A DNA stretch of 64,000 nt from the NCBI GenBank assembly GCA_949299395.1, contig CASGAB010000002.1:23734-87733 (forward strand). Reading direction: 5' to 3'. Position numbers and translations under genes: made by a program. This DNA is from an uncultured bacterium. GTDB taxonomy: Bacteria; Bacillota_I; Bacilli_A; RFN20; CAG-826. The notes under the pieces were generated by a model. It was not told the DNA's origin and did not search any database. It worked only from the letters and a program-made list of their open reading frames with translations. Of this stretch, positions 8,696 through 23,481 are shown piece by piece; the stretch's first letter is position 1, and each line of letters begins with the position of its first letter.

Positions 8696-10198
8696 ATGGA
8701 CAAAATAGTCATTCTAGACTATGGAAGCCAATATAATGAATTACTCTTAAGAAAATTAAGAGATAATGGCGTCTATAGTCTCTTGTTACCAAAAGATACA
8801 AGTAAAGAAAAAATCGAAGATCTTCATCATGTTAAAGGCATCATCCTTTCAGGTGGACCTGGCGTTATTCAAGATAGCGATGACAAATTATTTGATGAAA
8901 GATTACTTGAACTTAACATTCCAATTTTAGGAATTTGCTATGGCATGGAAGCTTTAGCAAGACATTATGGTGCGAAAATCGAATCAATAAAGGACAGAGA
9001 GTATGATAAACACGTTGTTCGTGTGAATACAAATTGTCCTTTATTTTTAGACATACCTGAAGAAACTGTTGTTTATATGACTAAAAACGACCGTGTACTT
9101 AATTTGGAAGGAGTCGAAGAAATCGCTGAAAGTGCTTCAAGTGGTTTAGTTGGATTCTCTAACGATTATGTTTTTGGACTTTTATTCCATCCTGAACTTG
9201 ATGCAACTGAATATGGCGTAAAAATCTTACAAAACTTCATTAATATCTGTGGATGTAACGGACACTGGACAATCGATTCATTTATTGAAAATAAAATTAA
9301 AGGAATGAAGAAAGTCATTGGTGATAAAAAAGTTATTTTAGGTTTATCAGGTGGTGTTGATAGTGCGGTTACTGCATTACTCTTACATGAAGCTATTGGA
9401 GATAATTTAACTTGCTTATTTGTTGAAACCGGCTTACATAGATATAACGAATATAATGTTATCGTTAAACGTTTTGAAGAAAATTTCAAAATTAAAGTCC
9501 ATGTTGCTGATGAAGGTGAACTTTTCTTAGGTAGACTTAAAGGAGTTGTTGATCCAGAAGAAAAACGTAAAGTTATTTCATCGACATTCGTTGAAGTATT
9601 CAAAAAATATGCTGATAAACTCGGACATTTTGATTTCTTAGCTCAAGGCACACTTTATAGTGATATCAGAGAATCTAAATGGGGTGGTAAGAGCAAGGTT
9701 ATTAAAGATATTCCTTCAGATATTGGCTGGGAAATTATTGAACCAATTAAACAATTAACTAAAGATGAAGTCAGAAGTGTTGGTAAACGTTTAGGATTAG
9801 ATGATTCATTTATTAACCGTCAACCATTCCCTACTCCAGGTCTTGCTATTAGAATTATTGGTGAAGTTACACTTTTAAAACTTGAAATCTTAAGAGAAGC
9901 AAATGAAATTCTTTCTCAAGAAATAAGAAAAGCACATCTTGAAAGAGATATGTATCAATATTTCTGTGTCTTAACTAATATTGATAGTGTTGGTGTTGAA
10001 GGAAATAATAAGATTTATTATCACACTGTTGCTATTAGAGCAGTTACTTCAATTGATGGAATTAATGCTGATTTCTATCACTTCGATATTGAATTCTTAG
10101 CTAGAGTTTCAAGAAGAATTGTTAATGAAGTTGCTGGTGTTAATAGAGTAGTTTATGATATTACTACAAAACCACCATCCACAATTGAATATCAATAA
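8696..10198 (+). CDS. guaA: GMP synthase (glutamine-hydrolysing) homologue, strongly degenerate
   Basis: LDYGSQY, SGGP, GICYG, FHPE, LSGGVDS, DPEEKRK, QGTLY, KDEVR, PFP.PGL, KPPSTIE. Several conserved residues are missing (see findings). Confidence 0.8.
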   Translation: MDKIVILDYGSQYNELLLRKLRDNGVYSLLLPKDTSKEKIEDLHHVKGIILSGGPGVIQDSDDKLFDERLLELNIPILGICYGMEALARHYGAKIESIKDREYDKHVVRVNTNCPLFLDIPEETVVYMTKNDRVLNLEGVEEIAESASSGLVGFSNDYVFGLLFHPELDATEYGVKILQNFINICGCNGHWTIDSFIENKIKGMKKVIGDKKVILGLSGGVDSAVTALLLHEAIGDNLTCLFVETGLHRYNEYNVIVKRFEENFKIKVHVADEGELFLGRLKGVVDPEEKRKVISSTFVEVFKKYADKLGHFDFLAQGTLYSDIRESKWGGKSKVIKDIPSDIGWEIIEPIKQLTKDEVRSVGKRLGLDDSFINRQPFPTPGLAIRIIGEVTLLKLEILREANEILSQEIRKAHLERDMYQYFCVLTNIDSVGVEGNNKIYYHTVAIRAVTSIDGINADFYHFDIEFLARVSRRIVNEVAGVNRVVYDITTKPPSTIEYQ

Positions 10199-10210
10199 TA
10201 TCTATTAGAT

Positions 10211-10238
10211 AAAAGGGAAGATTATTCTTCCCTTTTTT
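10211..10238 (+). terminator. Intrinsic terminator
   Basis: AAAAGGGAAGA-ttat-TCTTCCCTTTTTT. Confidence 0.8.
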
Positions 10239-10346
10239 AGTTAAAGAATAACTTTGTCATATATTTTAATTTCTAAACTTGACTAGTGAGTTTTATTGAT
10301 TAATATTTTAAGTAATCGGATTTAAAAATAATAAGAGGAAAAGGAC

Positions 10347-11249
10347 ATGCTATTTTCATCAAATAATAAACTTGTATTAATTGGCGGTAGTAACGTCGAT
10401 TTTATTGCAACTAGTTTAAAACCAATAATTAACGGAACATCAAATATTGGTAAACTTAAAATCTCATTTGGTGGAGTCATGAAAAATGTTGCTTATGATT
10501 TAAAGATCTTAAATGACAATTTTATATTTTTAACTGCAATTGGAAATGATTTATATGGAAAAGAATTAAAAGAAGAACTTAAAAATGCTTCAATTAATTT
10601 TATTTTTCCTAAATCAAATAGAATTTCTTCAACTTATTTAGCAATTAATAATGAGAAAAATGATTTATATGTTTCAGTTTGTGATAATCAAATTATTGAT
10701 TGTATTTCGCCATTTTTCTTATCAAAAAACCAAAAAATCTTAGAAAACAGTGAATATATTTGTTTAGATGCGAATTTAAGTGATGAAACAATTAAATATA
10801 TTTTTACTAACTTTTCTCATAAAAAAATTATGGTTGAAGGAGTTTCAATTCCTAAAATAATTAAATTTAAACCATATTTAGATAAGATCCATGTTTTAAA
10901 GTGCAATGTTGGTGAAGCAAAAGCTTTAGTAAATTATGGTGTTAAAGATGAAGATTTACCTCAAAAGTTAGTAGAAACTGGTGTTAAAAAATTCATCGTT
11001 TCTAATAAAGAAGCTGATGTTATCGCTTATGATGGTTCTCACGTGGAAAAATTTTTAGTAGATAAGTTAGAAAATATCGTAAATTCAAATGGAGCAGGAG
11101 ACGCTTTGTTTGCAGGGTTTACCCATGTTTACACAAAAAATGAAGACTTTGAAGGAGCAATAAAATTTGGAATTAAACTTGCTAGATACGTCCTTCAAAG
11201 TGAAGAAGCATACTCTTTAGAGTCAAAAGAACTCGTTTTAGGTAAATAA
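10347..11249 (+). CDS. PfkB-family kinase, probable pseudouridine kinase
   Basis: IGGSNVD, GGVMKNVA, IGNDLYG, LDANL, NSNGAGDALFAG. psuG lies 4.7 kb upstream. Confidence 0.7.
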   Translation: MLFSSNNKLVLIGGSNVDFIATSLKPIINGTSNIGKLKISFGGVMKNVAYDLKILNDNFIFLTAIGNDLYGKELKEELKNASINFIFPKSNRISSTYLAINNEKNDLYVSVCDNQIIDCISPFFLSKNQKILENSEYICLDANLSDETIKYIFTNFSHKKIMVEGVSIPKIIKFKPYLDKIHVLKCNVGEAKALVNYGVKDEDLPQKLVETGVKKFIVSNKEADVIAYDGSHVEKFLVDKLENIVNSNGAGDALFAGFTHVYTKNEDFEGAIKFGIKLARYVLQSEEAYSLESKELVLGK

Positions 11250-11390
11250 TTTTAAAAATTTTTAAAAAAATGAGAGGATTTTTCAAATTCCAGCATTCTT
11301 GTATATAGAGGGGGTTAAAATTTCTTTACTTTAAGGGTTGATTCTTTTATACTTATTAAGCACTTTTATATAGTTTACTATATAGGGTCG

Positions 11391-18338: not shown

Positions 18339-18504
18339 GGGTATATCGATGCAAAATGGTGCATCACTTCCAGCCTGAAGCCAAAGTTTAGGGGCTACCC
18401 ACATATATTATTAAAATTAGATAAAAAGATTAGTTTCTAACTTATATATCTGAAATATTAGTGTGGGATGGATTAGGACAGTTAAAAGATAGCCACACTT
18501 TTTT
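18339..18504 (+). ncRNA. Purine-riboswitch-fold aptamer variant with terminator/antiterminator platform
   Basis: P1 GGGUA/UACCC, P2 GAUGCA/UGCAUC with loop AAAUGG, J2/3 ACUUCCAG, P3 CCUGAA/UUUAGG with loop GCCAAAG, J3/1 GGC. Downstream GTGTGG...CCACAC followed by a T run. Lies upstream of a nucleoside ABC importer. Confidence 0.65.
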
Positions 18505-18531: not shown

Positions 18532-19644
18532 ATGAAGAAAAATACTTTATTTGTTGCTCTCGGAGCATTAGGTTTAGTCTTAGGCGTTGCTTCTTGTGGT
18601 AACTCAACTTATGAATACGCTTTAGTTACAGACGTCGGTGATATTGATGATGAATCATTCAACCAAACTTCATGGGAAGCTTTAAAAGATTTCGCAGAAA
18701 AAAATGACAAAACATATCAATACTACAGACCAACAGAAGATTCAACAAATGCTAGATTAGCTGCAATCGATCAAGCTGTTCAAAGAGGTGCAAAAATTAT
18801 TGTTTGCCCAGGCTTCTTATTCGAAGACGCAGTTTATGAAGCTCAAACAAAATATCCAGATGTTAAATTTGTTTTATTAGATGGTAAACCACATACAGCT
18901 GACAATTCTACATATGAAACAAAAGAAAATACAGTTTCAATCATTTATCAAGAAGAAATTTCAGGCTTCTTAGCAGGTTATGCTGCAGTTATGGATGGTA
19001 AAAAATCATTAGGTTTCTGTGGTGGTATGGCTGTTCCGGCTGTCCAAAGATTCGGTAGTGGTTTCGTCCAAGGTGCTAACGTTGCTGCTAATGAATTAGG
19101 CATCGTTGACGAAGTTACAGTTAAATACTACTATGCTGGTGCTTTCCAAGCTACAGATGAAGCTACAGCAAAAATGAAAACATGGTACACTGGTGGTGTC
19201 GAAACAGTCTTCGCATCTGGTGGTAAAGTTTATCAATCAGTCCTTGAAGGTTGTAAAACAGGCGGTGCTGACGCTACATGGATTGGTGTTGACGTTGACC
19301 AATCAGGTGTTGATCCAAAAGTTTTAACTTCAGCTGTTAAAGGTTTATACGAATCAGTTCAATCAGCATTAGAAATTTATTATAACGATGCATGGTCTGA
19401 AATCGGTGGTGAAGACTACAATTTAGGCTTAAATGCTGAATTCGGTAGCGTTGCTGCTAAAGATTATGTTGGTCTTCCAACAACTGACGAAGCATGGAGA
19501 TTTGAATCTTTCACAAAAGATCAATACAATGCACTTCTCAACGAAATTAAATCTGGTAATATCGAAATTGATAACAGCGATACAACAGCTCCAACTGTTG
19601 ATATCGATGTTACTTATGAATCACCATTCGCAAACGCAGAATAA
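18532..19644 (+). CDS. BMP-family nucleoside-binding lipoprotein (PnrA/NupN-like)
   Basis: Lipobox VASC; TDVGDIDDESFNQ, PGFLF, GFLAGY, WIGVDVDQ, SAVK. Confidence 0.9.
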   Translation: MKKNTLFVALGALGLVLGVASCGNSTYEYALVTDVGDIDDESFNQTSWEALKDFAEKNDKTYQYYRPTEDSTNARLAAIDQAVQRGAKIIVCPGFLFEDAVYEAQTKYPDVKFVLLDGKPHTADNSTYETKENTVSIIYQEEISGFLAGYAAVMDGKKSLGFCGGMAVPAVQRFGSGFVQGANVAANELGIVDEVTVKYYYAGAFQATDEATAKMKTWYTGGVETVFASGGKVYQSVLEGCKTGGADATWIGVDVDQSGVDPKVLTSAVKGLYESVQSALEIYYNDAWSEIGGEDYNLGLNAEFGSVAAKDYVGLPTTDEAWRFESFTKDQYNALLNEIKSGNIEIDNSDTTAPTVDIDVTYESPFANAE

Positions 19645-19664
19645 TTTTGATAATTTATAATTTG

Positions 19665-19702
19665 AGGGCAGGCAGCGTAAATTACCCTGCCGCCCTTTTT
19701 TT
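19665..19702 (+). terminator. Intra-operon terminator/stabilising hairpin
   Basis: AGGGC-a-GGCAG...CTGCC-GCCCT followed by a T run, between the binding protein and ATPase genes. Confidence 0.7.
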
Positions 19703-19728
19703 AATTAATATAAGATGAGGTAATTTAT

Positions 19729-21300
19729 ATGGACGATAATTATGTTATAGAAATGGAACATATTTCTAAGTCCTTTCCAGGTATCAAAGCAAACGATGAT
19801 ATTACAATTCGTTTAAAAAAAGGTGAAATTCATGCTCTTTTAGGTGAAAATGGAGCTGGAAAATCCACTTTGATGTCAATTTTATTTGGTTTTTATCAAC
19901 CAGATGAAGGCGTAATCAAAATTAACGGACAAGAAGTAGAAATTAAAGATCCAAACCAAGCAAACGATTTAGGTATTGGCATGGTTCACCAACACTTCAA
20001 ATTAGTTGAAGTTTTTACAGTTTTGGAAAATATTATTTTAGGTGTCGAACCAACAAAATATAAACTTTTTTTAACTAAGAAAGAAGCAAGACAAAAAGTC
20101 TTAGATTTAGCTGAAAAATATGGCTTAGAAGTTGATGTCGACGCTAAAATTGAAGATATAACTGTTGGTATGCAACAAAAAACGGAAATTTTAAAGATGC
20201 TTTATAAAGATAATGACATCTTAATTTTCGATGAACCAACAGCAGTTTTAACTCCACAAGAAATTCAAGAATTACTTATAATCATGAAAAACCTTGCTAA
20301 AGAAGGCAAGTCTATTCTTTTTATTTCTCATAAATTAGATGAAATCATGGATGTAAGCGATACTTGTTCAGTTTTAAGAAAAGGTAAATTAGTTGCTACT
20401 AAGAAAATTAGTGAAACTAATAAAGAAGAATTATCAAGATTAATGGTAGGAAGAGATGTTTCTTTTTCTGTTAATAAAAAAGACCCAGAAGTTGGAGATA
20501 CAGTTTTAAAAGTTAGAGACCTTGTTATGGCGGATAAGATCCATAAAGGTGTTGATATTGTTAATGGCGTCTCATTTGATGTTAAAAAGGGCGAAATCGT
20601 CTCCATTGCTGGTATCGATGGTAACGGTCAATCTGAATTAGTTTTTGGAATCACAGGTTTAGAAAAAGTTAAAGGAGGAAGTATATCTTTTAACGAAGTT
20701 GATATTACAAATGAATCAATTTTTAAAAGAAATAATTTAGGTATTGCTCATATTCCTGAAGATAGACATAAACATGGCTTAGTTCTCGATTATCCTTTAG
20801 ATTACAACGCTGTTTTAGAAAATTATTGGAAACCAGATTTTACAAAAATTAAATTCTTATTAGATAAGAAAAAAATTAGAGACTATTCTGATTCATTAAT
20901 TGAAAAATATGATATTAGAAGTGCTGAAGGCAGCAAAACAATAGTTAGAAGTATGTCTGGTGGTAACCAACAAAAAATTATTGTTGCTAGAGAAATTGAT
21001 CGTGATCCAGAATTATTAATTGCTGTTCAACCAACTAGAGGACTCGACGTTGGAGCAATTGAAAATATTCATAAACAAATTGTTGCTGAACGTGATGCTG
21101 GTAACGCTGTTTTATTAGTATCTTTTGAACTTGATGAAGTTATGGATTTATCAGACAGAATTTTAGTTATGTTTAACGGAAAAATTGTTGGTGAATTCAA
21201 TCCAAAAGAAACGACACCAGAAGAGTTAGGTCTCTATATGGCTGGTGCAAAATCTAATTATGAATTTAATGAGGAGGTAGCAACAAATGAAGAAAACTAA
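19729..21300 (+). CDS. Nucleoside/sugar ABC transporter ATP-binding protein (two NBDs)
   Basis: GENGAGKST, MVHQHF, FDEPT, MSGGNQQK, QPTRGLD. Confidence 0.93.
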   Translation: MDDNYVIEMEHISKSFPGIKANDDITIRLKKGEIHALLGENGAGKSTLMSILFGFYQPDEGVIKINGQEVEIKDPNQANDLGIGMVHQHFKLVEVFTVLENIILGVEPTKYKLFLTKKEARQKVLDLAEKYGLEVDVDAKIEDITVGMQQKTEILKMLYKDNDILIFDEPTAVLTPQEIQELLIIMKNLAKEGKSILFISHKLDEIMDVSDTCSVLRKGKLVATKKISETNKEELSRLMVGRDVSFSVNKKDPEVGDTVLKVRDLVMADKIHKGVDIVNGVSFDVKKGEIVSIAGIDGNGQSELVFGITGLEKVKGGSISFNEVDITNESIFKRNNLGIAHIPEDRHKHGLVLDYPLDYNAVLENYWKPDFTKIKFLLDKKKIRDYSDSLIEKYDIRSAEGSKTIVRSMSGGNQQKIIVAREIDRDPELLIAVQPTRGLDVGAIENIHKQIVAERDAGNAVLLVSFELDEVMDLSDRILVMFNGKIVGEFNPKETTPEELGLYMAGAKSNYEFNEEVATNEEN

Positions 21301-22522
21301 TTTTTCATGGAAAGAATTAGGAACAAGAAGTGTTACTGTTTTAAAATCTCAACCTGCACTTAAAACTTATTCCTCTTTACTTTGTATCTTTGTCTCATTA
21401 ATTATCGGTTTAATATTCCTTTTAACAATGGATGCTGCAAACGCATTCTCTGAATTTATAAATATGTTAACCGGTGGTTTACAATATGGAAGTTCAAACT
21501 TCTTTGCTATTTTAGCAAAAACTGCCCCATTATTATGCTGTGGTCTTTCAATTGTTTTTGCTAATAAAACTGGTATGTTTAATATTGGTGTTGCAGGACA
21601 ATACACTATTGGTATTCTCGGTAGTTTAATGTTTGCACTCCAATTTAATTGTCCTTGGTATGTTTGTATTTTAATGGCTATAGTCTTCGGTGCTATATGG
21701 GCTTCAATTCCTGGCTTATTAAAAGCTTTCTGTAATGTTAATGAAGTTATTTCTGGCATTATGTTGAACTGGATTGCTCTTTTCTTTACAAACTATTCGT
21801 TCCAAACATATTTAAATGGATGTGTTGATATTTCAAAAGGCTCAAAGACATTTGCCTTAGCAATGAAAAATCCAAGTGCATTAATCCCAGACTTTGGTTT
21901 AGGATCATCCACAGGTGGCTACTTTACAATTTCTATTTTCATTGCTATTCTCGCAGCTATATTAGTTTGGTTTATTATGTCTCATACAACTTTAGGTTTC
22001 CAACTTAAGGCAAGCGGTCTTAATAAACACGCTACTAAATATGCTGGTATTAAAGAAAAGAGAAATATTATTATTTCTATGGCAATAAGTGGTGCTTTAG
22101 CTGCTTTAGGTGCTTCATTATTCTATTTAGCTGGTTTAGAAGAATGGTCTGTTCAAGCATCATCAGCTTTACCTCAAGTTCCGTGGAATGGTATCGTTGT
22201 TGCATTCGTTGGACAATTATCACCTATCGGAACAATCTTTGCTTCAGTATTTACAACTTTAATTTCTCATGGTGCTAGATTTATGTTACAAACATCATTC
22301 CCTGCAGAAATTGGTGACTTTATTACTGGTTTAATCGTTTACTTATCAGGTTTGACTAATTTAGCAGTTATTCTTGTTAATAAATATTTAAGAAACAAGA
22401 AAGAAAAACAAGAGTTGGCATTAGCTGGTGCTAGTGGTGAAACAGTAACCACAGAAGAAGTTTCTGCAGAAGAAAATAGCGAAACTCTTGAAGAAAACTC
22501 TGACAAAGGAGGTAATGAATAA
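21287..22522 (+). CDS. Nucleoside ABC transporter permease 1
   Basis: GMFNIGVAGQ, NEVISGIMLNWI, GFQLKASGLNKHATKYAG; multiple TM helices. Confidence 0.9.
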   Translation: MKKTNFSWKELGTRSVTVLKSQPALKTYSSLLCIFVSLIIGLIFLLTMDAANAFSEFINMLTGGLQYGSSNFFAILAKTAPLLCCGLSIVFANKTGMFNIGVAGQYTIGILGSLMFALQFNCPWYVCILMAIVFGAIWASIPGLLKAFCNVNEVISGIMLNWIALFFTNYSFQTYLNGCVDISKGSKTFALAMKNPSALIPDFGLGSSTGGYFTISIFIAILAAILVWFIMSHTTLGFQLKASGLNKHATKYAGIKEKRNIIISMAISGALAALGASLFYLAGLEEWSVQASSALPQVPWNGIVVAFVGQLSPIGTIFASVFTTLISHGARFMLQTSFPAEIGDFITGLIVYLSGLTNLAVILVNKYLRNKKEKQELALAGASGETVTTEEVSAEENSETLEENSDKGGNE

Positions 22523-23481
22523 TGGCTGATCAATTCTTACTTTTATTATCATATATGTTAATTTTTGCCGCTGCGCTTTCCTTTGTTGCTTTAGGCGGTA
22601 TGTTCTCAGAAAGAAGTGGTATCATCAACATTGGTCTTGAAGGTATCATGGTCATCGGTGGATTCTGTGGACTTTTAACTTTAAATGCTTTAGCAGGTGC
22701 AGGAGTCAATCCATTCTTAGTTGTTGTTATTACAATTTTAGTTTCTATCGCTGCTGGTATGGCTTATTCACTATTGCTAGCAGTAGTTGCTATTCAATTT
22801 GGTGCTGATCAAACATTAACTGGTACAGCATTAAATTTATTAGCTACAGCTATTTCACTTATCTTTGCTAAAAGATTAAGTGGCGGTGTCTCAACTTCAA
22901 TTAACTTCTCAAATGATTACTTTGTTTATGATTTAGGACATTCCTTCTCAATTAACCTTTTCTTAGTTCTTGCAATCGTTGTCTTAGTTATTGCAATTAT
23001 AGTTTTGTATAAAACTAGATTTGGTTTAAGATTAAGATCTTGTGGTGAAAATCCAGCTGCTGCAGATAGCGTTGGTATTAATGTTAAAAAATATCGATAT
23101 GCTGGCGTCTTAATTTCAGGTGCTTTAGGTGGAATCGGAGCATTGGCTTACATTCTTCCAACAGCTTCATTCTGGAATTCATCAACCGGTGTTGCTGGTT
23201 TCGGTTTCTTAGCTTTAGCTATTATGATCTTTGGTCAATGGAAACCATTAAGAATTGGAATTATTTCATTATTATTCTCATTCTTCTTATCATTATCTTA
23301 TGTTTATTCAGGTATTTTCGAAGCAATCTTCGGATTCACATTAACTGCAAAAGATGGTGTTACATCTGAATTATTTAGAATGTTACCGTTTATCGCTTCA
23401 CTTATTCTTCTTGCCTTTACCTCTAAAAACAGTAGAGCTCCAAAAGCAGAAGGTATACCTTACGATAAATCTAGAAGATAA
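22522..23481 (+). CDS. Nucleoside ABC transporter permease 2
   Basis: SERSGIINIGLEG, GLRLRSCGENPAAADSVG, GFLALAIMIFGQW, C-terminal AP.AEG.PY. Confidence 0.9.
   Translation: MADQFLLLLSYMLIFAAALSFVALGGMFSERSGIINIGLEGIMVIGGFCGLLTLNALAGAGVNPFLVVVITILVSIAAGMAYSLLLAVVAIQFGADQTLTGTALNLLATAISLIFAKRLSGGVSTSINFSNDYFVYDLGHSFSINLFLVLAIVVLVIAIIVLYKTRFGLRLRSCGENPAAADSVGINVKKYRYAGVLISGALGGIGALAYILPTASFWNSSTGVAGFGFLALAIMIFGQWKPLRIGIISLLFSFFLSLSYVYSGIFEAIFGFTLTAKDGVTSELFRMLPFIASLILLAFTSKNSRAPKAEGIPYDKSRR

What the first reader, a model, noticed from the sequence alone, without database searches (positions are those of the whole stretch)
8696..10198. GuaA homologue with the HHN loop deleted and substrate-binding residues eroded
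Seen: full length and no frameshift. Compared with canonical GMP synthase motifs as recalled: IKSHHNVGGLP becomes IKDIP (about 6-residue deletion), GICYGMQ becomes GICYGME, WMSHGD becomes YMTKND, GVMGDxRxY becomes GVEGNNKIY, DFMTA/DGMTA becomes DGINA, PGPGL becomes PTPGL, and the terminal IEWE becomes IEYQ. The Cys-His-Glu triad and PP-loop (SGGVDS) are retained. Known: the HHN loop and C-terminal residues are implicated in XMP binding and adenylation. Inference: a neofunctionalised amidotransferase/adenylase with a different substrate, or a non-catalytic paralogue maintained by selection. I saw no purine riboswitch upstream.
Basis: partly seen in the sequence, partly recalled or inferred. Interest (0 to 1): 0.65.

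Follow-up and report, generated by a model that had tools for sequence, protein, structure and literature searches.

The report
Lid-less GMP synthase paralogue under selection
An uncultured gut Bacilli lineage keeps, beside its normal GMP synthase, a second copy that has lost the enzyme's "invariant" catalytic lid yet is strongly conserved, so it probably does a new, still unknown job in nucleotide salvage.

Summary
ORF 8696-10198 (+) encodes a full-length, three-domain GuaA-like protein. It lacks the six lid residues SHHNVG. It also carries GVEGNNK for GVMGDxR, DGINA for D(G/F)MTA, P-T-P for P-G-P and a terminal Q for E.

This is not private decay. The same changes are fixed in a clade of at least 15 metagenomic sequences (60-90% identity). 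dN/dS is 0.06-0.15 for close pairs, as low as for the lineage's canonical guaA.

It is a paralogue. Two relatives carry a canonical guaA with IKSHHNVGG, one in tandem and one on another contig of the same MAG. A canonical guaA (P0027) lies in the same sequencing run as the window's contig, at similar depth and matching divergence.

A PsuK-like PfkB kinase was duplicated as well. One kinase copy stays next to each guaA copy.

The PP-loop, the DxxES catalytic pair, the direct XMP-contact residues and (in 13 of 15) the glutaminase Cys are kept.

Best reading (about 0.4): a neofunctionalised PP-loop amidotransferase acting on a nucleoside monophosphate other than XMP, supplied by its partner kinase. 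Rivals are a non-catalytic nucleotide-binding partner and a lid-independent GMP synthase.

The parts
4717..5628 (+). psuG-like gene (pseudouridine-5'-phosphate glycosidase family, Pfam Indigoidine_A). It lies immediately upstream of guaA* in all relatives.
   Evidence: Pfam PF04227 on the identical gene of L001. Orthologues are 80-92% identical and syntenic in L003, L005, L009 and L012-L015.
5733..8466 (+). Strain-specific three-gene insertion between psuG and guaA*: a PRiA4_ORF3-like protein, a 463-aa Zn-ribbon plus PP-loop WbuX-like protein, and an EFR1-type ferredoxin. It is not part of the conserved module.
   Evidence: Family hits. The insertion is absent from the 90%-identical relatives L012 and L013 and from L005, L009 and L015.
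8558..8586 (+). Promoter-like site of guaA* (TGGTCA-17-TACAAT).
   Evidence: Consensus scan. The -35/-10 block is conserved in the alignment of upstream regions of seven loci.
8627..8692 (+). Conserved 5'-UTR element. GGACUCA can pair with GAGUC beside the Shine-Dalgarno sequence, and there is an inner hairpin at 8636-8658.
   Evidence: Alignment A3 shows conservation and compensatory changes in L003 and L014. The fold is, but its energy is not significant against shuffles. There is only a weak gltS RNA hit.
8696..10198 (+). guaA*: the lid-less GMP-synthase paralogue (500 aa).
   Evidence: AlphaFold2 model with pLDDT 83 and Foldseek TM 0.85 to 7sbc and 1gpm.
8696..9265 (+). Class-I glutamine amidotransferase domain, with C81 (8936-8938), H165 (9188-9190) and E167 (9194-9196). 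Clade-specific changes are S57V, G104D and H130K.
   Evidence: PF00117 covers residues 5-182. Residue checks and clade tallies.
9347..9364 (+). PP-loop SGGVDS (residues 218-223), invariant in 15 of 15 clade members.
9704..9709 (+). Junction K337|D338, where six residues (SHHNVG of the invariant IK(T/S)HHN lid motif) are missing.
   Evidence: Alignments. The role of the lid motif is taken from PMC10526850.
9830..9838 (+). P379-T380-P381, replacing the P-G-P that surrounds the xanthine base. Thirteen of 15 clade members have Phe at position 380.
   Evidence: Mapping onto T. thermophilus Pro382-Gly383-Pro384 through the alignment and PMC11448925.
9992..10012 (+). GVEGNNK (433-439), replacing the invariant GV(M)GDxR loop whose Arg clamps the XMP phosphate of the neighbouring subunit.
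   Evidence: The loop's role is taken from PMC10526850 section 5.1.
10055..10069 (+). DGINA (454-458), replacing D(G/F)MTA.
10184..10195 (+). C-terminal IEYQ. I497 and E498 are kept, and the last residue is Q instead of E in 15 of 15 clade members.
10211..10242 (+). Intrinsic-terminator-like hairpin plus U-tract directly after guaA*.
   Evidence: Fold energy -16.3 kcal/mol, z = -2.8.
10347..11249 (+). PfkB' kinase (PsuK-like), the co-duplicated partner that stays next to guaA*.
   Evidence: PF00294. Best NCBIfam hit is pseudouridine kinase at 127 bits, far below the 540 cut-off. The tree shows a clade of guaA*-linked kinases (100/98) and a clade of canonical-guaA-linked kinases (100/99).

Best explanation
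guaA* is a lineage-specific paralogue of glutamine-hydrolysing GMP synthase, found in a narrow lineage of uncultured, low-GC gut 'Bacilli bacterium' MAGs.

Shown:
- In the ancestor of this lineage a two-gene unit was duplicated: a PsuK-like PfkB nucleoside kinase plus guaA.
- One pair stayed canonical (PfkB-guaA, with the IKSHHNVGG lid).
- In the other pair (guaA*-PfkB', next to psuG) the synthetase lost the catalytic half of the lid. It also fixed new residues in the base surround (G380F/T), in the neighbouring-subunit phosphate clamp (D437N, R439K), in DGMTA (now DGINA), at D244E, G295S and D403N, at the C-terminal residue (E500Q), and around the glutamine pocket (S57V, G104D, H130K).
- Since then the copy has evolved under purifying selection as strong as that on the canonical copy.
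- It retains the ATP-binding elements (the PP-loop, K356, R375), the catalytic Asp/Glu of DxxES, the ribose-5'-phosphate contacts, the purine O6/N7-binding Arg, the interdomain coupling motifs and, in most members, the glutaminase triad.

Inferred:
- It is still a PP-loop, adenylate-forming amidotransferase.
- It acts on a nucleoside 5'-monophosphate other than XMP, or on an XMP analogue, made by its partner kinase PfkB'.
- It uses glutamine-derived ammonia, or free ammonia in the members that lost Cys81.

The identity of the substrate is not known.
For: Paralogy:
- L009 and L015 carry psuG-guaA*-PfkB-PfkB-canonical guaA in tandem.
- The MAG CASEST01 carries guaA* (L014) and a canonical guaA (L018).
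- Run ERR10610672 holds both the window-identical guaA* contig (L002) and a 16,969-bp contig (L094) with canonical P0027. Depths are about 209 and 182. Divergence from the L014/L018 genome matches: dS 0.77 against 0.70, and nucleotide identity about 82% for both.
- In the ML tree the guaA* clade (100/100) and the lineage's canonical clade (100/100) are sisters (99/97). Their stems are similar in length, 0.41 and 0.45.

Selection:
- dN/dS is 0.06-0.15 for close pairs and 0.22-0.35 for distant pairs. All three domains are constrained.
- guaA* orthologues are 69-77% identical where DnaB is 50-57% and GdpP 53-57%.

Remodelling rather than erosion:
- At positions at least 93% conserved in 88 canonical sequences plus two canonical copies from the lineage's own loci, guaA* carries a new residue fixed in 12-15 of 15 members.
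- The PP-loop, D323, E326, R291, Q421, K356, K492, I497, E498 and R484 are 15 of 15.

Expected loss of the canonical reaction: in P. falciparum GMPS the lid mutants K386L and H389A abolish adenyl-XMP formation, and N390A is inactive (PMC10526850). The Lys equivalent (K337) is not even conserved in the clade, at 9 of 15.

Kinase link: guaA*-linked and canonical-linked PfkBs form separate starred clades.

Fold: the model is intact, with a disordered lid as in canonical enzymes.
Against: - No biochemical data exist and no substrate can be named.
- Two clade members have lost the glutaminase Cys (P0009 has G, P0013 has S and also H165L), so amide transfer from glutamine is dispensable at least there.
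- The possible sister lineage P0015/L010 has lost the PP-loop Asp and the DxxES Asp. This hints that non-catalytic roles are possible in this paralogue family.
- The Arg that reads xanthine O6/N7 is retained, which argues against a radically different base.
- The linkage to psuG and PfkB' lies within a region that is syntenic throughout. It could therefore reflect descent rather than function, although the two-clade kinase tree argues otherwise.
Confidence: 0.4

Rival explanations
1. GuaA* is a non-catalytic pseudoenzyme. It still binds ATP and/or a nucleotide and acts as a sensor or regulator. One possible form is a heterodimer with canonical GuaA through the highly conserved dimerisation domain. 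Each GMPS active site uses a loop from the partner subunit, so a GuaA*/GuaA heterodimer would have altered sites.
For: - The catalytic lid residues are gone, and the lid Lys is not conserved (9 of 15).
- The glutaminase Cys is lost in 2 of 15 members.
- The possible sister P0015 lacks the PP-loop Asp and the DxxES Asp.
- The dimerisation domain is the best conserved part between distant members: 86% identity against 60% for the GATase domain.
- A canonical GuaA partner coexists.
- Other degenerate GuaA-like lineages exist among the 50% representatives.
- From my own knowledge, animal GMPS has a non-enzymatic role as a USP7 cofactor.
Against: - Within the clade proper the PP-loop, D323, E326, K356 and R484 are 15 of 15, R375 is 14 of 15, and the triad His and Glu are 14 and 15 of 15.
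- The GATase domain is still under purifying selection, with dN/dS 0.13-0.35.
- The interdomain coupling motifs RKLRD, DIRES and KDEVR are kept.
- A co-duplicated kinase stays linked, which suggests a metabolic two-step.
Confidence: 0.28
2. GuaA* is still a GMP synthase, a second isozyme. Its shortened lid, with new K328, W329 and K332, does the work of the HHN motif. It might have different regulation, ammonia dependence or inhibitor sensitivity.
For: - The whole protein passes the NCBIfam equivalog cut-off (581 against 400) and the C-terminal domain model (384 against 339).
- All direct XMP contacts and the ATP contacts outside the lid are retained.
- New basic residues, invariant in the clade, flank the shortened lid.
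Against: - The IK(T/S)HHN motif is described as invariant. H389A and K386L abolish adenyl-XMP formation and N390A abolishes GMP synthesis in PfGMPS.
- The invariant Gly243-Glu250 clamp loop and the P-G-P base surround are also changed.
- A canonical copy coexists, and both copies have been kept under selection over a divergence of dS above 1. That is unexpected for redundant isozymes.
- The N-terminal domain model TIGR00888 falls below its cut-off (163 against 172).
Confidence: 0.14
3. The gene is a decaying duplicate or an assembly artefact: strain-private erosion of a redundant guaA copy.
For: It is a duplicate of a gene whose canonical copy is retained.
Against: - The identical protein occurs in independent assemblies (L001 from ENA, L002 from Logan, and the window).
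- The deletion and substitutions are shared by at least 15 sequences down to 60% identity.
- dN/dS is 0.06-0.15.
- No frameshifts or stops occur in any member.
Confidence: 0.02

Closest known systems
Glutamine-hydrolysing GMP synthase GuaA (EC 6.3.5.2), for example E. coli 1GPM, A. baumannii 7SBC and T. thermophilus 2YWB/2YWC
   Same: - The same three-domain architecture (class-I GATase, PP-loop ATP pyrophosphatase, GMP_synt_C dimerisation domain).
- 38-42% identity and TM 0.85.
- The Cys-His-Glu triad, SGGVDS, DxxES, the Arg for O6/N7, the Gln for ribose and the Lys/Ile/Glu for phosphate are all present.
   Different: - It lacks the SHHNVG part of the invariant lid motif.
- The clamp loop is GVEGNNK instead of GVxGDxR.
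- P-T/F-P replaces P-G-P, DGINA replaces D(G/F)MTA, and D244E, G295S, D403N and E500Q are fixed.
- It is a paralogue that coexists with a canonical guaA.
The lineage's own canonical guaA (P0021-P0029 group; P0027 on L094, P0025 on L009)
   Same: - It is the sister clade in the tree (99/97).
- It shares the lineage traits GICYGME and a C-terminal IEY-.
- It is also linked to a PsuK-like PfkB kinase.
   Different: The canonical copy keeps IKSHHNVGG, PFPGPGL, GVMGDNRTY, DGMTAD and a terminal E. The two copies are only 48-52% identical.
Other N-type PP-loop ATP pyrophosphatase amidotransferases (NAD+ synthetase NadE, asparagine synthetase B, tRNA thiolases such as TtuA/MnmA)
   Same: They share the SGGxDS PP-loop and the logic of adenylating a carbonyl before attack by a nucleophile. 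There are weak family hits to NAD synthase and tRNA_Me_trans.
   Different: These hits cover only the PP-loop region (about 40-50 residues). The overall fold and the C-terminal NMP-binding domain are those of GMPS.
Degenerate GuaA-like proteins elsewhere (P0015/L010; the 50%-cluster representatives P0298, P0310, P0351, P0363, P0386, P0387, P0393, P0406)
   Same: They are GuaA-length proteins without the HHN motif.
   Different: Those proteins have also lost the catalytic Cys, and several have lost the PP-loop or the clamp loop. guaA* keeps all of these. They are separate 50% clusters. No tree was built for them, except for P0015, which is a weakly supported sister (93/77).

Membership tests
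Glutamine-hydrolysing GMP synthase (GuaA, EC 6.3.5.2) | Three-domain architecture: GATase, ATP pyrophosphatase and GMP_synt_C | tested here: met
   PF00117 (residues 5-182), PF02540 (PP-loop region) and PF00958 (408-499). AlphaFold2 model with Foldseek TM 0.85 to 7sbc and 1gpm.
Glutamine-hydrolysing GMP synthase (GuaA, EC 6.3.5.2) | Score above the curated equivalog cut-offs | tested here: inconclusive
   NF000848 scores 581 against a cut-off of 400, and TIGR00884 scores 384 against 339; both pass. The N-terminal model TIGR00888 scores 163 against 172 and fails.
Glutamine-hydrolysing GMP synthase (GuaA, EC 6.3.5.2) | Glutaminase triad Cys-His-Glu | tested here: met
   C81, H165 and E167 are present in the window's protein. 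Across the clade the counts are C 13/15, H 14/15 and E 15/15.
Glutamine-hydrolysing GMP synthase (GuaA, EC 6.3.5.2) | PP-loop SGGxDS and catalytic DxxES | tested here: met
   SGGVDS 218-223, D323 and E326, all 15 of 15 in the clade.
Glutamine-hydrolysing GMP synthase (GuaA, EC 6.3.5.2) | Invariant lid motif IK(T/S)HHN (needed for adenyl-XMP formation and amination) | tested here: not met
   SHHNVG is deleted between K337 and D338. The motif's role comes from PMC10526850.
Glutamine-hydrolysing GMP synthase (GuaA, EC 6.3.5.2) | Invariant GVxGDxR loop whose Arg clamps the XMP phosphate of the partner subunit | tested here: not met
   The loop is GVEGNNK. D437N and R439K are each found in 14 of 15 members. 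The loop is described as invariant in PMC10526850.
Glutamine-hydrolysing GMP synthase (GuaA, EC 6.3.5.2) | P-G-P surround of the xanthine base | tested here: not met
   P-T-P in the window and P-F-P in 13 of 15 members. Mapped to T. thermophilus Pro382-Gly383-Pro384.
Glutamine-hydrolysing GMP synthase (GuaA, EC 6.3.5.2) | Direct XMP contacts: Arg (O6/N7), Gln (ribose), Lys and Ile/Glu backbone (phosphate), and the Arg that holds the C-terminal loop | tested here: met
   R291, Q421, K492, I497, E498 and R484 are all 15 of 15. Mapping.
Glutamine-hydrolysing GMP synthase (GuaA, EC 6.3.5.2) | Orthology with the organism's guaA (the gene that supplies GMP) | tested here: not met
   It is the sister paralogue of a canonical copy that coexists with it.
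Glutamine-hydrolysing GMP synthase (GuaA, EC 6.3.5.2) | Catalyses XMP + ATP + Gln -> GMP + AMP + PPi + Glu | not testable with these tools
   This needs an enzyme assay or complementation.
N-type PP-loop ATP pyrophosphatase superfamily | SGGxDS pyrophosphate-binding loop on a Rossmann-like five-stranded core | tested here: met
   The motif is present. The core strands and helices are predicted with pLDDT of about 84-94 for residues 190-310.

The most novel reading that the evidence does not exclude
GuaA* plus its co-duplicated kinase PfkB' form a previously unknown two-step salvage route. The kinase would phosphorylate a nucleoside and GuaA* would then aminate a ring carbonyl directly at the monophosphate level.

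Candidate reactions:
- IMP to AMP, or UMP to CMP, without the usual adenylosuccinate or CTP-synthase routes.
- Amination of pseudouridine 5'-phosphate or another RNA-derived modified nucleotide, given the conserved position next to psuG.

Any of these would be a new enzymatic reaction built on the GMP synthase scaffold.
Probability: 0.12. Interest if true: 0.85.

Novelty: new variant of a known kind. Interest (0 to 1): 0.55.

Why it matters
The IK(T/S)HHN lid and the GVxGDxR clamp loop are treated in the literature as invariant and essential parts of every GMP synthase. Here nature has removed one and rewritten the other, then kept the result under purifying selection comparable to that on the canonical enzyme, alongside a normal copy and a dedicated kinase.

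This gives a defined, clonable pair of proteins (GuaA* and canonical P0027, about 52% identical) for two questions. What is the lid really needed for? Can the GMPS scaffold aminate other nucleotides?

It also warns annotation pipelines. This protein passes the NCBIfam 'equivalog' threshold for GMP synthase and would be named guaA. Metabolic reconstructions of these uncultured gut Bacilli may therefore miscount their purine capabilities.

Tried and rejected
The window's whole genome could not be searched for guaA, guaB, xpt, purA/B or pyrG.
The absence of a canonical guaA hit for MAGs CALVYH01 and CASEKC01 (L012, L013) therefore proves nothing.
- tblastn found no second GuaA-like gene in the 64-kb window.
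- Rfam found no purine or other riboswitch at gathering score in the window. Upstream there was only a weak gltS RNA hit (E = 0.18).
- No RNA-seq run holds the gene, so expression could not be checked.
- Read laying on the window failed once on a filter. At 95% likeness or more it then gave zero depth over 8300-11255. The depth of the window's contig was instead taken from the contig that carried the window's loose ends.
- Literature searches for lid-less or second GuaA paralogues found nothing relevant.
- PADLOC gave no hit for the inserted three-gene cassette.
- Pfam on 20 further ORFs between 23.7 and 64 kb of the window found no purine-metabolism gene.

Readings rejected:
- Sole, merely divergent guaA orthologue: rejected because a canonical copy coexists.
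- Strain-private decay: rejected because of dN/dS and the clade.
- Assembly artefact: rejected because the protein is identical in independent assemblies.
- Recent gene conversion between the two copies: rejected because the two copies are only 23-68% identical in sliding windows with no highly similar block.
Full report
**1. The observation**

The ORF at 8696-10198 (+) is intact: 500 aa with no internal stop. It is a three-domain GuaA-like protein:
- PF00117 GATase, a PP-loop region and PF00958 GMP_synt_C.
- NF000848 at 581 bits (cut-off 400) and TIGR00884 at 384 bits (cut-off 339). The N-terminal model TIGR00888 scores 163, below its cut-off of 172.

Alignments to five solved GMP synthases all show a gap that removes the (K)SHHN(VG) part of the lid. 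An AlphaFold2 model is confident (pLDDT 83, pTM 0.78). It superposes on 7sbc and 1gpm at TM 0.85. Only the shortened lid (320-341) and the last six residues are disordered.

**2. Not private decay: a clade under purifying selection**

The protein search shows a sharp step. Twelve cluster representatives of 497-506 aa are 60-90% identical to the query, and then identity drops to 53%. All of that group share the deletion and the same substitutions.

I compared 15 clade members with 88 canonical sequences plus two canonical copies from the lineage's own loci (L018, L015). I looked at positions at least 93% conserved in the canonical set. At these positions the clade carries a different residue that is itself fixed:
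- S57V, G104D, H130K
- D244E, G295S
- the lid deletion
- G380F (T in the window)
- D403N, D437N, R439K
- M456I, T457N, E500Q

- The E of GICYGME and the Y of IEY- also occur in the lineage's canonical copies.
- The M of GVMGD and the W of WQYF vary among solved enzymes.

dN/dS is 0.06-0.15 for close pairs (dS 0.42-0.77) and 0.22-0.35 for distant pairs. The lineage's canonical guaA gives 0.14-0.21. All three domains are constrained. Against relatives whose DnaB is 50-57% and GdpP 53-57% identical, guaA* is 69-77% identical. The identical protein occurs in independent ENA and Logan assemblies.

**3. It is a paralogue**

- Scaffold L009 (and the species-representative MAG L015) carries psuG - guaA* - PfkB - PfkB - canonical guaA (IKSHHNVGG) - rpsF in one row.
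- MAG CASEST01 carries guaA* on one contig (L014) and a canonical guaA on another (L018).

The indirect test ran as follows. Two runs of one sample hold all sampled words of the window's gene. I laid their contigs on L018's canonical guaA. This recovered a 16,969-bp contig at depth 182, about 82% identical, with no gap at the lid. The contig that carries the window's own flanking letters has depth about 209.

A partial translation of the recovered contig matched P0027. P0027 was then found on L094 = logan:ERR10610672_10872. That is the same run that yields the window-identical contig L002. P0027 is fully canonical.

Divergence from the L014/L018 genome is the same for both genes:
- guaA*: 81.8% nucleotide identity, dS 0.77.
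- Canonical guaA: about 82% nucleotide identity, dS 0.70.

I therefore put about 85% on the window's organism having P0027, at a locus proS - MFS - 883-aa gene - PfkB - guaA.

In the ML tree the guaA* clade (100/100) and the lineage's canonical clade (100/100) are sisters (99/97). Their stems are equally long, 0.41 and 0.45. The paralogue is therefore not globally 'eroded'. It is changed at specific sites.

In a library of 1.84 billion 50%-identity representatives, the clade collapses to a single cluster (1008 bits; the next hit scores 598 bits). NCBI titles call the carriers 'uncultured Bacilli bacterium' MAGs. One run that holds part of the gene is labelled gut metagenome.

**4. A kinase was duplicated with it**

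Every guaA copy in the lineage has a PsuK-like PfkB kinase beside it. In a tree the kinases next to guaA* form one starred clade (100/98). Those next to canonical guaA form another (100/99). Pre-duplication relatives (L010, L011) fall outside both.

All these kinases best match the pseudouridine-kinase model, but at only 65-144 bits against a cut-off of 540. Their specificity is therefore open. A distant Bacilli MAG (L011) also has PfkB next to canonical guaA. This suggests that this kinase subfamily works with GMP synthase.

guaA* always lies just downstream of a psuG-like gene. The whole region is syntenic, however, so this adjacency alone is weak evidence for a link to pseudouridine. The three genes between psuG and guaA* in the window are a strain-specific insertion.

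In the window, guaA* has its own conserved promoter-like site, a conserved 5' UTR and a terminator-like hairpin.

**5. What the changes mean**

From the literature:
- The lid motif IK(T/S)HHN is described as invariant. In P. falciparum GMPS, K386L and H389A abolish adenyl-XMP formation, H388A slows it and N390A abolishes GMP synthesis (PMC10526850).
- The loop Gly243-Glu250 of the M. jannaschii enzyme (GVxGDxR) is invariant. Its Arg reaches into the partner subunit to clamp the XMP phosphate.
- Pro382-Gly383-Pro384 of the T. thermophilus enzyme surround the xanthine base. Arg288 reads O6/N7, Gln424 binds the ribose, and Lys495, Ile500 and Glu501 bind the phosphate. Lys359 and Arg378 bind the ATP phosphates (PMC11448925).

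Mapped through the alignment:
- guaA* keeps R291, Q421, K492, I497, E498, R484 and K356 in 15 of 15 members, and R375 in 14 of 15.
- It keeps the PP-loop and D323/E326 in 15 of 15 members.
- It keeps the interdomain motifs RKLRD, DIRES and KDEVR.
- It has lost the HHN residues.
- Its lid Lys is not conserved (9 of 15).
- Its clamp loop and its base surround are rewritten.

This is the pattern of a remodelled active site that still binds ATP and a ribonucleoside 5'-phosphate. It is not the pattern of a dead gene.

**6. Explanations**

*Best (about 0.4).* GuaA* is a neofunctionalised PP-loop amidotransferase that acts on a nucleoside monophosphate other than XMP, supplied by PfkB'.

*Rival 1 (about 0.28).* It is a non-catalytic nucleotide-binding protein, possibly a heterodimer partner of canonical GuaA. 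Points in favour:
- Loss of the glutaminase Cys in P0009 and P0013.
- The more degenerate possible sister P0015 (no PP-loop Asp, no DxxES Asp).
- The very high conservation of the dimerisation domain.

*Rival 2 (about 0.14).* It is a lid-independent GMP synthase isozyme.

*Decay or artefact* is excluded.

Shown: paralogy, the clade, selection, the retained and the changed residues, and the kinase co-duplication. Inferred: catalysis, the change of substrate, and the functional link to the kinase.

**7. Comparison and novelty**

By fold and domain order this works like, and descends from, GMP synthase. As a member of the functional family it fails three tested defining features (lid motif, clamp loop, P-G-P) and the orthology test. 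It should therefore not be annotated as guaA, even though it passes the NCBIfam equivalog score.

I found no paper describing a lid-less GuaA paralogue. Other degenerate GuaA-like proteins do exist among the representatives searched, but they have lost the catalytic Cys, and several have lost the PP-loop too.

I rate it a new variant of a known kind, with interest 0.55. It is a clean natural experiment on an 'invariant' catalytic element and comes with a testable two-gene module. It has no known substrate and a narrow distribution.

Noticed in passing
window 5733-8466: A three-gene cassette sits between psuG and guaA* only in this strain: a PRiA4_ORF3-like protein, a 463-aa Zn-ribbon plus PP-loop WbuX-like protein, and an EFR1-type ferredoxin. 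It is absent from the 90%-identical relatives L012 and L013. There are no PADLOC hits. An EFR1/flavodoxin-like gene also lies about 3 kb from the canonical guaA on L093/L094.
   Followed up: partly
window 8474-8487: The palindromic motif TTTACACGTGGAAA (CACGTG core) lies upstream of the guaA* promoter. It is conserved in L012-L014 even though the upstream gene differs. It may be a regulator binding site.
   Followed up: no
window 8627-8692: A conserved 5'-UTR element. GGACUCA can pair with GAGUC beside the Shine-Dalgarno sequence. The inner hairpin (8636-8658) shows compensatory changes in L003 and L014. The only Rfam hit is a weak one to gltS RNA (24 bits, E = 0.18), and the fold energy is not significant.
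   Followed up: partly
window 11264-11302: A 39-nt stretch between PfkB' and rpsF is a branch point of the Logan contigs, at about twice the depth of its neighbours (357 against 169-233). It is probably a short repeat present at a second locus.
   Followed up: no
window 8300-11255 in runs X1/X2: read laying at 95% likeness or more gave zero depth over a stretch whose sampled words these runs were reported to hold completely. This is probably a tool filter and not biology.
   Followed up: no
L010 6453-7958 (P0015): A further GuaA-like protein, 53% identical, has a different degenerate lid (LVDNLDYG). Its PP-loop is SGGAAS, the DxxES Asp is lost and the clamp loop is rewritten, but it keeps IEWE. 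It lies in psuG-PfkB-DEAD helicase-guaA'. It may be a sister of the guaA* clade (93/77).
   Followed up: partly
proteins P0298, P0310, P0351, P0363, P0386, P0387, P0393, P0406: Several 50%-cluster representatives of GuaA length lack HHN and the catalytic Cys, and some lack the PP-loop or clamp loop. Degenerate GuaA-like paralogues seem to recur in unrelated lineages.
   Followed up: no
P0009 and P0013 (clade members): The glutaminase Cys81 is replaced by Gly in P0009. In P0013 it is replaced by Ser, with His165 also changed to Leu. The ATPPase residues remain intact in both.
   Followed up: partly
L011 9055-11530; L018, L092, L093, L094: A PsuK-like PfkB kinase lies immediately upstream of canonical guaA in this lineage and in a distant Bacilli MAG. 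The subfamily may be a purine (xanthosine/inosine/guanosine) nucleoside kinase rather than a pseudouridine kinase.
   Followed up: partly
window 18339-18400: An earlier agent reported a guanine-riboswitch variant before the Bmp/ABC nucleoside importer (18532-23481). Rfam at gathering score finds nothing in the window, which is consistent with a variant below threshold.
   Followed up: no
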